64,000 nt of DNA from Eledone cirrhosa (Eukaryota), in the NCBI GenBank assembly GCA_964016885.1, contig OZ024742.1, forward strand, positions 28,396,001 to 28,460,000. The letters are read 5' to 3'. Below are positions 1 to 57,525 of the stretch, in pieces. The notes under the pieces were generated by a model. The model searched no databases. It had not been told where the DNA came from and saw only the letters and a list, made by a program, of their open reading frames with translations. Both the position numbers and the translations under genes were made by a program. Every line of letters starts with the position of its first letter. The first letter of the stretch is position 1.

Positions 1-268
1 TCAAATGCTGTGTTCAGGAGAGGCGGTTGCATTGGTATGGACATGTGATGCGTATGAAGGATGACAGCTGCATAAAAAGGTGCAGAAGTCGATGGAAACC
101 GTGGAGTGGGGAGACCCAAGATGACTTGGGATGAGGTGATAAAAGCCGACCTTATCCAATTACACCTCTCAAAGGCGATGACACACGACCGTGACCTCTG
201 GCGTCACGCAGTAATACAGGGTACCCGACCTCCCATGGGTACAAGCTGAAGCATATAGACAATATGCC
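1..268 (+). mobile_element. RTE LINE fragment (end of ORF plus start of 3' UTR), cut off by the PLE RT fragment
   Basis: Translates CCVQERRLHWYGHVMRMKDDSCIKRCR...GRPKMTWDEVIKADL; homologous to the RTE copies at 11500-11780. Confidence 0.85.
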
Positions 269-1066
269 ACCACACTTTCTCAGGGCCTTTCTACACTGGT
301 TAGCTAATTTCCCTCCAGGGGTAGTGTCCACAAACATGACACTCTGGTATCTCTGGTTGTCATACCATGAGGTGGCTTTCCCTATCTTATGTCTAGCCCT
401 ATCTAATCTATTCCATGATTTGCTCCTGTATAATGGGCAAATTCCTTTCATGTCCAGTTCTATGAGGGTCTTATACTTCTCCGTGGCTCCTTCGTATACT
501 CTGACTCTGTCTCTTTGGTTGTAGCCAGAGAACTGCATGCGGTTGATGACGTGTTGGATGTGTCTTTCCATTTCTGTTGGGTCGCACATGCGGGACACAT
601 TCTTCATCACTCGTACCAAATCTGCGATCAGAATATTAAACTTAGCACTACTGGACATTGCTGAGTTTTTGAGTATCAGGTATTTGGAGGCCATGGGTTT
701 AGCATAGTGTGAGTGGAGAATTTTGGCTCTCTCGTCTATAGTATTAATCCAGAGTTCCGTGTCTAATACAGGTAGTCTATTGTTAGGGTGTTTGGAAGGG
801 AAGTCTATAGTTACAGTTATACTCTGGTGTATGGAATTAGCTATCTGCTGGATGCTTTCCATTGTGCTACGTTCTAAATCAAACTTGTTAGTGCTCTCTA
901 GTAGGGATGTTTTTATAACTATATTGATATCGTCTACGTAACGAGAGTACATGATGAGGTCTATGGAGCTCTCATTAAGGAGATCTTTAAGTCTCCTTTC
1001 CCACCATACCATAAAAAGGTTGGCAACGTCACCAGCTATGCTGACGCCAATGGCTGCTCCCCCATT
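268..1066 (-). mobile_element. Penelope-like element reverse transcriptase fragment (RT core, thumb, linker); 5'-truncated and lacking the GIY-YIG endonuclease
   Basis: Uninterrupted frame with QxxGxxIG...VANLFM, RYVDD (929-940), LPVLD, HYAKPMAS, MQFSGY, PLYR and VMFVDTTPGGKLA motifs typical of PLE RTs; both ends of the 152..1087 ORF run into flanking repeats. Confidence 0.85.
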
Positions 1067-1277
1067 TTGGTCAGTCAATGGCAACATTGAGGACCGAATA
1101 AATTAGATTACCGATATAAAAGACACAGAAGCGAAAAGCGAAAACCAACCAAACAGTGAGTGTGTTCTGTTATTAATTCTGGCAATATTACACAAATATG
1201 ACCCTCCCCAAGTATAACAATATTTGTTTCGACACACGATTTCATATCAAAAACCTCGCAAAACTAATTCATCGCCG
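1067..1277 (+). mobile_element. PLE terminal repeat (pLTR tail), inverted at the 5' end of the RT fragment
   Basis: ttggtcagtcaatg...gaccctccccaagtataacaat...catcgccg matches 46928-47067 (downstream of a hammerhead motif), 28944-29118, 6316-6483 and 56927-57190; ends in (TA)n. Confidence 0.7.
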
Positions 1278-1317
1278 TTATATATATATATATATATATA
1301 ATATACCTTATATAATA

Positions 1318-53999: not shown

Positions 54000-54883
54000 A
54001 AGGGTGCGGACGATATTTGTTCCCAATTTTCAACTGCTAATTTTATGTAAATTTTTTTTACTTCCGTTGTCACTCTTGTCTTCATAAAAACAGTGACTAT
54101 ATTTTCATTATTTATTTTCAGAATAATTGATTATGAATAATTTTGAGCATCCAAATTTGTGGAACAGACACGGAGTTCTTCTTGTTATCCATGCCGGGAG
54201 GATAAATAAGGAAATTTCAGACTTTCTCAGAACAACAGGTGGCTCGCTGTCTCATCCAAAAACATGCCCCGAGTCATGCAGACAAAGTTTCCAGCGACAA
54301 CATTGGTCTCAAGTGTCGTCAGCAGTCAATGTGCCACCTCACTTCTTCCCTGAGGGCCTCAAGCTGAACACCGATGGCTACATCCACATTCTGAGCGAGG
54401 TAGTAAAGCCCTGGATTGCACAGGTAGCTGCAGGTAGGCCGTACATGTGGCAGCAAGACTCAGCGTCCTGCCATACCTGCCAAAAGACCCAAGCCTGGCT
54501 GTCAGAGAACTTCGTGGACCACACTTCACCTGACATCTGGCCTCCCAGCTCGCCTGACTCCAACCCACTCGACTTCTTTGTGTGAGGCACAGGGGAATGA
54601 GACACCAACAGATCTAGCTGCAATACGAAAGATGATCTGAAGGCCAGGATCACAATTGCCTTTAGGGGCCTAAGTCGGGGGACAGTGACAAAGGCCTGTA
54701 GCCGGTTCCAAGGCCACCTTGAGGCCGTCATCAAAGCCAATGGCGGGTTTATCGAGTGAGATCGAAAGAAGAAGTCATGAAGACAAACTGACCCAAGTTT
54801 GATAAATATATCTTAAAAAATAAAACTACTGTGTTATTTTTTCCTAGACAGTAATCTTGCGAACAAATATCATCCGCACCCTG
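54000..54883 (+). mobile_element. Internally deleted DD37D (maT/mori-type) Tc1/mariner transposon with TIRs, inserted in (TA)n
   Basis: TIR agggtgcggacgatatttgttc / gaacaaatatcatccgcaccctg; QNNRWLA...TKFPA, WQQD-x37-D (WPPSSPDSNPLD); HTH and first Asp missing; frameshift and stop present. Confidence 0.9.
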
Positions 54884-55507
54884 TATATATATATATATAT
54901 ATATATATATATATATATATATATATTTATATATATATTCTAAACCCATGCTAGCGTGGAGGATAGACGTTAAACGATGATGGTGATATATATATATATA
55001 TATCATCCTTTTATGTCTGTTTTCCATTCATGGGTTAAACAGGTTATCATGTTCGAAGGTTAGACAGGTTAGGTAACTGCATCTTGCTCATATGTTACCT
55101 TTTGGCCTGGTTTCTATGGCTGGCTGGCTACACTTTATAATACCCACCACTTGCACACCATGTACTAGGTATGTTTTATCATGGCATCAGTACTGCCGCC
55201 TTTCAATGCAAAGGTTGTCATTGTGTCTGGGATGGGAAGACAGTGATAAGAGTTGGAGTATGACAATGGAAGAAAACATGTTGCTGAAGGTGATGTGTGT
55301 ATATATATATATATATATATATATATATATATATATATAGTAGTATGAAACTTTTTTTTAGACTAAATAAGCTCTCTTCCAACAAATCAAGAACTGTTTT
55401 CCTCGATCTTTCATCTACAGATTTATACCAAAACATATATATATATCCCACCCTTGCAAGCAGCGAAGAGCAGACATAAAATGATGATAATGATGCTGAG
55501 GATGATG

Positions 55508-57525
55508 TATATATATATATATATATATATATATATATATATATATATATATATAAATATATATATATATATATATATATATATAAATATATATATATAT
55601 ATAAATATATATATATATATATATAAATATATAAATATATATATATATATATATAAATATATATATATATATAAATATATATATATATATAAATATATAT
55701 ATATATATAAATATATATATAAATATATATATATATATAAATATATATATATATAAATATATATATATATATAAATATATATATATATATAAATATATAT
55801 ATATATATAAATATATATATATATATAAATATATATATATATATAAATATATATATATATATAAATATATATATATATATATATATATATAAATATATAT
55901 ATATATATAAATATAAATATATATATAAATATAAATATATATATATATAAATATATTTATATATATAAATATATTTATATATATAAATATATTTATATAT
56001 ATAAATATATATATATATATAAATATATATATATATATAAATATATATATATATAAATATAAATATATATATAAATATAAATATATATATAAATATAAAT
56101 ATATATAAATATATATATATAAATATATATAAATATATATATATATATAAATATATATATATATATAAATATATATATATATATAAATATATATATATAT
56201 ATATATATATATATAAATATATATATATATATATATATATATATATAAATATATATATATATATAAATATATATATATATATATATATATATAAATATAT
56301 ATATAAATATATATATATATATATATATATAAATATATATATAAATATATATATAAATATATATATATATATATATATATATATATATATATATATATAT
56401 ATATATATATAATATATATATAAATATATATATATATATATATATAAATATATATATATATATAAATATATATATAAATAATATATATATATATATAAAT
56501 ATATATATAAATATATATATATATCTAAATATATATATAAATATATATCTAAATATATATATAAATATATATATATATATAAATATATATATAAATATAT
56601 ATATAAATATATATATAAATATATATATAAATATATATATATAAATATATATATATAAATATATATATATATATATATATATATATATATATATATATAT
56701 ATATATATATATATATAAATATATATATAAATATATATATATCTAAATATATATATAAATATATATATATCTAAATATATACATATATAAATATATATAT
56801 ATATATATAAATATATATATATATATATAAATATATATATATATATATATATATATATATATATAAATATATATATATATATATATAAATATATATATAT
56901 ATATATAAATATATATATATATATATATATTGTTATACTTTGGGAGGGTCATGTTGCCAATAAGAAACACACGCACCAGTTGCTTTCACTTCAATTTAAT
57001 TTAATATATATTTATAAATTTACAAATTTATAAATTTGTAAATTTATAAATATATATTAAATTAAATTGAAGTGAAAGCAACTGGTGCGTGTGTTTCTTA
57101 TTGGCAACATGACCCTCCCAAAGTATAACAATATCGGTTTCAACACACGATTTCAGATAAAGAATCTTGCTAAACAAATTCAGAAACGAAATATATATAT
57201 ATAAATATATATATATATATATAAATATATATATATATAAATATATAAATATATATATATATAAATATATATATATATAAATATATATATATATATAAAT
57301 ATATATATATATAAATATATATATATATAAATAAATATATATATATATAAATATATATATATATATAAATATATATATATATAAATATATATATATATAA
57401 ATATAAATATAAATATAAATATAATATAAATATAAATATAAATATATATATATATAAATATATATATATATAAATATATATATATATAAATATATATATA
57501 TATAAATATATATATATATATATAG
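55508..57525. repeat. About 2-kb (TA)n/TAAA tract containing a PLE palindrome
   Basis: Direct inspection. Confidence 0.95.
56927..57190. mobile_element. PLE pLTR-tail fold-back element containing a perfect 208-bp palindrome (56927-57134)
   Basis: 56941-57000 is the exact reverse complement of 57061-57120; centre at 57030/57031; right arm continues into the tail (tttcaacacacgatttc). Confidence 0.8.

What the first reader, a model, noticed from the sequence alone, without database searches (positions are those of the whole stretch)
268..57190. One Penelope-like family seen as RT copy, ribozyme-bearing mini-copy and pure fold-back inserts
Seen: the same tail of about 200 bp occurs five times. 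It is inverted on the 5' end of a stop-free RT (1067-1277), sits sense after a hammerhead motif and an LNRKHEWN ORF end with a short inverted cap and TSD (46608-47067), forms tail-to-tail hairpins (6316-6483, 56927-57190) and survives as a fragment (28944-29118). Known: Penelope-like elements carry hammerheads in their pLTRs and often have inverted 5' pLTRs. Inference: these MITE-looking palindromes are extreme 5'-truncated PLE retrotransposition products, a truncation series from about 1 kb down to tail only.
Basis: partly seen in the sequence, partly recalled or inferred. Interest (0 to 1): 0.75.

Follow-up and report, generated by a model that had tools for sequence, protein, structure and literature searches.

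The report
Double-primed stubs of four Penelope lineages
The five look-alike pieces are truncated insertions of four related Penelope-type jumping genes, a known architecture, and their hairpins were likely made by copying one RNA twice from two start points 54 bases apart, as suggested by a near-strict one-tailed-arm rule and by RNA-editing-like scars mirrored in both arms of sister copies.

Summary
All five pieces are real and Penelope-like (PLE), but they belong to four lineages, not one. A is the RT at 275-1066 plus 1067-1277; D is 28943-29118 (about 90% aa to A); B is 6316 and 46608 (old); C is 56927 (66% aa to A; 17,027 exact 32-mer hits). In other copies of A the tail lies 3' of RT, Zn-linker, GIY-YIG and a hammerhead-type motif, so the DNA-transposon refutation fails. 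The shared 'tail' is the pLTR end plus the first codons of the ORF. The hammerhead at 46859 has a G12-to-A change and is probably dead. Among 40 family-C inverted insertions, arm lengths vary from 49 to 3409 nt. Exactly one arm has the 54-nt tail in 37 of 40 (39 of 40 at true outer ends), often the shorter arm, which argues against simple fold-back. Five sister insertions share A-to-G hypermutations on both arms, pointing to one sense RNA copied twice. Two others were recopied from hairpin RNA. The architecture is published; I found the mechanism evidence in no paper searched. This scan already noted twin priming and ADAR marks on other DNA, including this genome.

The parts
275..1066 (-). Family A PLE reverse-transcriptase fragment (motifs 4-7 and thumb), stop-free, 5'-truncated at 1066 and cut at 275; endonuclease and 3' pLTR are missing here
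   Evidence: (top 40 genome hits 97-100%, 2810 candidates); Pfam RVT_1 only weak, E 0.06
1067..1277 (+). Inverted short arm of the same insertion: pLTR 3' part 1067-1223 plus tail 1224-1277; 2-nt microhomology at the RT junction; (TA)n follows at 1278-1315
   Evidence: 99% to L005
1197..1277 (+). Conserved core of the 'tail': first codons of the ORF (MTLPKYNN...), which explains its conservation across lineages
   Evidence: in a tandem family-C unit this ATG runs on into an open frame of about 360 aa
6316..6483 (.). Family B hairpin: long tailed inverted arm 6316 to about 6430, short tail-less arm about 6431-6483; 9-bp TSD at 6307-6315 / 6484-6492
   Evidence: empty paralogous unit; 92% to L033
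28943..29118 (-). Family D solo 3' stub without tail; D is a sister subfamily of A (ORF 76-92% aa in matched stretches)
   Evidence: (96-97% relatives, 3437 candidates)
46607..46644 (-). Family B inverted cap made of tail only; it does not overlap the long arm; 7-nt microhomology 46638-46644 with the ORF end
46638..47067 (+). Family B long arm: ORF end (LNRKHEWN 46652-46675, stop 46718-46720), UTR, pLTR, no tail; 12-bp TSD 46596-46607 / 47068-47079 with one mismatch
   Evidence: (best relatives 77-85%)
46855..46898 (+). Minimal type I hammerhead-like motif: CUGANGA 46859-46865, stem II 46866-46885, G12 replaced by A at 46885; probably inactive
   Evidence: no Rfam hit; G12 role is recalled
46927..46962 (+). 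Stable stem-loop downstream of the hammerhead; a related inverted repeat is visible in A and D
   Evidence: z -6.9, 0 of 200 shuffles
56927..57190 (.). Family C hairpin in (TA)n: perfect 208-bp palindrome centred on a self-complementary AT motif, tail 57135-57190 on the right arm only

Best explanation
The five pieces are 5'-truncated insertions of four related Penelope-like retrotransposon lineages, and their inverted arms likely arise when both nicked strands of an AT-rich target each prime reverse transcription on the same sense RNA, one at a site about 27 nt into the ORF and the other about 54 nt further on. Shown: the element structure (about 4.15-kb unit; RT, CX4CX2C linker, GIY-YIG, UTR with hammerhead motif, pLTR ending in the ORF start), two fixed 3' ends, variable 5' ends, the one-tail rule, and shared A-to-G marks in sister copies. 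Inferred: a dimeric RT-endonuclease cuts both strands; each 3' end pairs through a terminal AATAT with one start site; the two cDNAs stop early and are joined head to head by microhomology, often at the self-complementary AT motif, which gives tiny perfect palindromes; repair leaves a variable TSD. A minority route copies an already hairpin-shaped transcript whole.
For: Tail 3' of RT in 26 of 29 family-A copies. Natural open frames of 927 aa (A, L016) and 919 aa (C, L180), 66% identical, with linker, VYSI-C-C-YIGET and later H, R, E, N residues. Unbiased C sample (first 100 listed 32-mer hits on C1 and their surroundings): 121 3' ends, 40 inverted pairs, 41 solo of which 21 tailed. Exactly one tail in 37 of 40 pairs, none in 0, P 2e-8 against 0.5. 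Two of the three double-tailed cases are internal pLTRs running into the ORF, with a tail-less outer end, giving 39 of 40. Separate sets: 35 of 36 pairs (A 6/6, B 11/12, D 7/7, tiny-hairpin loci 11/11; B was found with a tailed query). Tail on long arm 21, short arm 10, tie 6. Partner arms differ by a median 1.1% against 4.8% to other copies (33 of 40 pairs had at least 80 nt overlap). Shared A-to-G on both arms: L177 32 shared/0 private, L202 30/2, L258 13/1, L209 23/15, L261 3/2. A 20-mer of the L177/L202 pattern occurs only at those four arms genome-wide. In L202 and L209 the tailed arm is the shorter one. In L177 the inverted arm copies the edited internal pLTR, not the unedited terminal one. 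Ten edited arms: 305 of 369 changes are A-to-G, highest before G (0.52) and lowest after G (0.18). In vitro, a PLE cuts and extends both strands, starts at two internal sites that bound the tail, and is predicted to be a dimer (PMC11167929). 110 of 121 C ends run into (TA)n.
Against: None of the five window copies showed editing marks, so the one-RNA step is carried over from sister loci of family C only. Edited pairs are few (5) and were picked by patterns that favour A-to-G. L209 arms differ at 50 of 305 columns. In 16 of 33 pairs some other copy is closer than the partner, and four pairs differ by 6-8% (part is junction misalignment). L230 has T-to-C marks on one arm only, with arms from different variants. 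L215 and L231 show A-to-G along one genomic strand across both arms, which is a different route. The window's 264-bp hairpin is letter-identical at two other loci, so copying as a unit is not excluded. No independent run covered the edited patches of L202, so they rest on one assembly. Gene conversion between arms is not excluded.
Confidence: 0.7

Rival explanations
1. Snap-back (fold-back): one cDNA folds on itself and is copied back, and the endonuclease then trims one end.
For: Perfect spacerless palindromes at a self-complementary motif. Near-identical arms and shared edits. Tail on the long arm is more common, 21 against 10. PMC3846280 proposes self-priming, and PMC8557442 ascribes the tail to endonuclease resolution.
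Against: The copied arm cannot hold sequence that its template arm lacks, yet the short arm carries the tail in 10 of 31 asymmetric pairs, including edited L202 and L209. The cap at 46607-46644 does not overlap its long arm at all. The antisense-template version predicts T-to-C marks in sense, but the five shared patterns are A-to-G.
Confidence: 0.1
2. Both strands are primed, but on two separate RNA molecules, usually from the same source locus.
For: It also explains tail on either arm and subfamily-matched arms. Some pairs have clearly different arms (pair 36, 20 of 256; L230).
Against: Hyper-editing patterns should differ between molecules, yet they are mirrored almost exactly, and the tested pattern is found nowhere else in the genome, so no pre-edited master is seen. 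It needs an extra assumption to give the one-tail rule.
Confidence: 0.12
3. The hairpins propagate as units (hairpin RNA recopied in trans), or arms are homogenised later by gene conversion.
For: L215 has 19 A-to-G on one arm, 8 T-to-C on the other, confined to the paired region; L231 is similar. Three letter-identical 264-bp hairpins, including the window's.
Against: Only 5 loci share the window's centre, in three different sequence variants each mirrored in both arms. The 176 tiny hairpins have varied centres in the 50 loci listed, and the tail falls on either side of asymmetric loops. No pair with T-to-C on both arms and no A-to-G partner was seen among L215, L230 and L231.
Confidence: 0.06
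4. The palindromes are MITEs of a DDE DNA transposon and the tail is a TIR.
For: Short, AT-rich, palindromic, TSD-flanked. A Tc1/mariner-like transposase fragment lies at 54127-54585 (label recalled).
Against: Ends are unequal (tail on one side), inner ends vary from 49 to 3409 nt, TSDs are 7-15 bp, the sequence is the pLTR and ORF start of RT-GIY-YIG elements, and it has no match near the transposase fragment.
Confidence: 0.01

Closest known systems
Canonical C-terminal EN+ PLEs of Neptune/Nematis type (PMC8557442; parts 1-2 of 10 and passages read)
   Same: RT followed by CX2-5CxxC linker and GIY-YIG with internal cysteines; hammerhead motif in the pLTR; partial tandems; adjacent inverted 5'-truncated copy; tail often at one end only; (TA)n preference.
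   Different: Tail is about 54 nt rather than 30-40. The paper gives no counts of tail polarity and lists the origin of inverted structures as open. Neptune versus Nematis was not resolved here.
Adineta vaga Pen2a and relatives (PMC3846280; passages read)
   Same: Inverted pLTR, tail on one inverted pLTR, pLTR and tail include the first codons of the ORF, 8-10 bp TSDs, palindromes at junctions, N-rich ORF segments.
   Different: That paper proposes self-priming, probably on an antisense template. The marks seen here point to a sense template primed twice.
Poseidon PAc of Anolis in vitro (PMC11167929; main text read, parts 1-2 of 4)
   Same: Internal initiation at two sites inside the ORF start that bound the tail; AT-rich targets; both strands cut and extended; predicted dimer.
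   Different: Penelope/Poseidon clade (no linker finger). The paper says start sites are not homologous to the target and do not differ between strands, and it does not address inverted arms. Here both sites end in AATAT next to (TA)n and pairs use one site each.
L1 twin priming (recalled, no call)
   Same: Two target strands prime on one RNA, giving an inversion joined by microhomology.
   Different: In L1 the two segments do not overlap; here the same stretch is copied twice, so palindromes result.
Non-LTR retrozymes (bioRxiv 10.64898/2026.07.22.740005; part 1 of 5 read)
   Same: Short non-coding PLE derivatives with a type I hammerhead.
   Different: Retrozymes are tandem arrays with intact ribozymes; these are dispersed inverted stubs and both hairpins lack the ribozyme.

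Membership tests
EN+ Penelope-like element | [quoted passage not shown] | tested here: met
   L016 927 aa and L180 919 aa open frames with YVDD and VYSI..YIGET; Pfam gave only sub-threshold RVT_1 and no GIY-YIG hit
EN+ Penelope-like element | Two cysteines between GIY and YIG (CCHH finger) and R, H, E, N catalytic residues | tested here: met
   C71 and C76, later R, H, E, N visible in alignment A1; definition from PMC8557442
EN+ Penelope-like element | pLTRs, partial tandems, inverted 5'-truncated copy, optional tail | tested here: met
   tandem unit of 4151 bp at C1:2.08 Mb
EN+ Penelope-like element | Hammerhead motif in the pLTR | tested here: met
   Core CUGANGA..GAAA intact in 27 of 29 A, 87 of 92 C, 9 of 21 B motif hits (overlapping loci not removed); the window copy is mutated; Rfam has no hit
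EN+ Penelope-like element | Ribozyme cleavage and retrotransposition activity | not testable with these tools
   needs an assay
Neptune or Nematis clade | CX2-5CxxC linker between RT and EN | tested here: met
   C44-x4-C49-x2-C52 invariant
Neptune or Nematis clade | Placement among named references in an RT phylogeny | not tested
   no named reference sequences were available; the tree (25 rows, 155 columns) only shows A-D with an Octopus vulgaris protein as one clade, 100/100
Naiad / Chlamys | N-terminal GIY-YIG, no hammerhead | tested here: not met
   EN is C-terminal and the motif is present
Hydra clade | No CCHH motif, elements under 3 kb | tested here: not met
   internal cysteines present, unit 4.15 kb
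MITE / DDE transposon | Equal TIRs, fixed length, constant TSD, cognate transposase | tested here: not met
Non-LTR retrozyme | Tandem monomers each with an intact type I hammerhead | tested here: not met
   single dispersed copies; hairpins lack the motif
ADAR hyper-editing signature (sister loci) | Strand-specific clustered A-to-G with neighbour bias | tested here: met
   305 of 369 changes; 3' G highest, 5' G lowest; 3' G preference of ADAR2 from PMC3113232 section 8; 5' order U>A>C>G is recalled, and here A exceeds U
ADAR hyper-editing signature (sister loci) | Confirmed in raw reads | tested here: inconclusive
   no coverage of the edited patches in 4 runs laid

The most novel reading that the evidence does not exclude
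Penelope elements build their inverted ends by overlapping twin priming: one RNA, two start sites, one per target strand. ADAR edits fixed in the germline act as molecular barcodes that prove it, and also show that finished hairpins and 1-kb host spacers can be recopied whole through edited RNA, so MITE-like palindromes can arise and occasionally spread with no DNA transposase.
Probability: 0.6. Interest if true: 0.7.

Novelty: new member of a known kind. Interest (0 to 1): 0.48.

Why it matters
The elements themselves are ordinary PLEs, and the practical point is that thousands of MITE-looking palindromes in such genomes are retrotransposon stubs. How PLEs form inverted ends is named as unresolved in PMC8557442. 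The one-tail rule, tail on the short arm and mirrored A-to-G marks separate the published self-priming or antisense model from double priming on one sense RNA, and give a direct prediction for the existing in vitro PAc system. They also indicate that RNA editing can be written into inherited DNA through retrotransposition in an octopus-type genome.

Tried and rejected
DNA search with the 56927 hairpin returned 0 candidates, an effect of common-word skipping; a pattern search replaced it. Rfam found no hammerhead family even on an intact family-C motif, so it cannot test the motif. Pfam missed the GIY-YIG domain. One fold (L014) used wrong coordinates and is ignored. TSD lengths cannot be read for A, C and D because they sit in (TA)n. 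The duplicated flank 148-275 / 1318-1451 was considered as a long TSD and rejected: 88% identity over most of it against 2% family divergence. Of 31 hits, most belong to a small unedited variant; 26 loci were examined, six gave no 3' end within my motif limits, and only L208, L209, L215, L216, L218 and L226 looked edited besides the two known. L208, L218, L226, L256, L257, L262 and L263 were uninformative for arm sharing. Run search and read laying showed the family in related organisms but did not cover the edited patches. Paper searches listed no paper on twin priming of PLEs, PLE-derived MITE-like hairpins or ADAR-edited PLE copies; the library lacks most subscription papers, including the older Penelope structure papers, and I saw no supplements, which may hold PLE insertion tables.
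Full report
Observation. The five segments are present and homologous. The RT frame on the minus strand is stop-free but cut at both ends: its match to other copies spans 275-1066, and an RTE-type LINE fragment lies where the endonuclease and 3' pLTR should be. The hairpins are head-to-head, with 3' ends outward. TSDs are 9 bp at 6316, confirmed by an empty paralogous repeat unit, and 12 bp with one mismatch at 46608. The hammerhead at 46859 keeps CUGANGA and stem II but has A at G12.

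What they belong to. The window lies in a 3.0-Gb genome; the closest named protein is from Octopus vulgaris, 69%. The RT belongs to a young family A. In 26 of 29 other copies the 1067-1223 sequence follows the RT in the same sense, and several also carry an inverted copy upstream. Natural copies read RT, CX4CX2C linker, GIY-YIG with two internal cysteines, and end in LNRKNEWN. The 46.6-kb and 6.3-kb pieces match an older family B (best hits 77-85% and 79-93%), whose ORF pieces are mostly 50-75% identical to A. The 56.9-kb hairpin is family C: 17,027 exact matches of a 32-mer, 0 for the reversed control, own 919-aa frame 66% identical to A, unit 4151 bp. The 28.9-kb stub is D, a sister of A. 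A small tree groups all four with the O. vulgaris protein at 100/100. The shared end is conserved because it encodes the ORF start, MTLPKYNN, as described for Adineta Pen2a (PMC3846280).

Truncation series. I took the first 100 listed C hits on contig C1 with their surroundings: 121 3' ends, 40 inverted pairs and 41 solo ends. Short arms run from 49 to 1862 nt and long arms from 83 to 3409 nt. A gap pattern counted 176 tiny hairpins, with varied centres in the 50 listed. Family B TSDs are 7-15 bp in the 10 of 12 pairs where both boundaries were found. 110 of 121 C ends run into (TA)n.

Mechanism. There are two fixed 3' ends, about 54 nt apart. Solo copies use them equally (21 of 41 tailed), but pairs have exactly one tail in 37 of 40, or 39 of 40 once two internal tandem pLTRs are recognised. 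Separate sets give 35 of 36, and 15 of 15 tiny hairpins, partly the same loci. The tail is on the long arm in 21, the short arm in 10, with 6 ties. A fold-back copy cannot carry sequence its template lacks, and the cap at 46607 does not overlap its long arm. Partner arms are closer than random copies (median 1.1% against 4.8%, 33 pairs). Four of 121 arms, forming two pairs, were A-to-G hypermutated. Targeted patterns found more. Five pairs share the marks on both arms (32/0, 30/2, 13/1, 23/15, 3/2 shared/private), the tested pattern is private to its two loci, and in L202 and L209 the tailed arm is the shorter. In L177 the inverted arm matches the edited internal pLTR, not the unedited terminal one. 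Across ten edited arms 305 of 369 changes are A-to-G with an ADAR-like neighbour bias. The simplest reading is one sense RNA primed by both target strands at the two sites. This agrees with in vitro PAc, which cuts and extends both strands and starts at two internal sites (PMC11167929), and disagrees with the antisense self-priming model (PMC3846280).

Results against. L215 and L231 carry A-to-G along one genomic strand through both arms, so hairpin transcripts are sometimes recopied whole. L230 has marks on one arm only. The window's C hairpin is identical at two other loci, although two further loci with the same centre come from other variants, which fits a recurrent junction hotspot. Some pairs have arms 6-8% apart. 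None of the window's own copies showed such marks, the edited set is small and pattern-selected, and no independent run covered the patches. Gene conversion is not excluded.

Comparison and novelty. The architecture (inverted truncated copy, one-sided tail, microsatellite targets, hammerhead) is published (PMC8557442; PMC3846280). The linker places these with Neptune/Nematis by motif; no phylogeny with named references was possible. Eight paper searches listed nothing on PLE twin priming or edited PLE copies, within a library that lacks most subscription papers. Earlier unchecked notes of this scan report both ideas in this and other genomes. I had reached the reading before opening them, and they are not counted as support.

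Verdict. New members of a known kind. Interest 0.48, resting on the mechanism evidence from sister loci.

Noticed in passing
L264 about 5300-8200 (G000:C4:162.095-162.098 Mb): Three family-C arms and about 1.2 kb of intervening DNA carry T-to-C on the plus strand in the element parts, as if one edited read-through RNA was copied whole (possible transduction of host DNA).
   Followed up: partly
L032-L078 versus L002-L030, L091-L180, L233-L251: Old family B sits in ordinary AT-rich DNA with readable TSDs, while A, C and D sit mostly in (TA)n: target preference differs within the clade, or the microsatellites have decayed.
   Followed up: partly
L177/L180: The C ORF has an N-, H- and T-rich low-complexity stretch between the N-terminus and RT, frameshifted in this copy; A has a similar N-rich stretch, recalling the N-rich inserts of Adineta PLEs.
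   Followed up: no
L118, L171, L192, L242, L263: Copies of different lineages often sit side by side or nested in the same (TA)n tract.
   Followed up: no
window 1-275, 1318-1730, 10260-11513, 31810-32700, 39078-39719: Several RTE-type LINE copies (label recalled), 90-93% alike in the longest pairs, one with a 417-aa open frame.
   Followed up: no
window 54127-54585: Tc1/mariner-like transposase fragment (label recalled), unrelated to the PLE ends.
   Followed up: no
window 12233-12290: tRNA-like match just above the Rfam cut-off (31.4 bits against 29), possibly a SINE head.
   Followed up: no
window about 3900-7200: Degenerate tandem repeat units; the 6316 hairpin inserted into one of them, which supplied the empty-site control.
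   Followed up: partly
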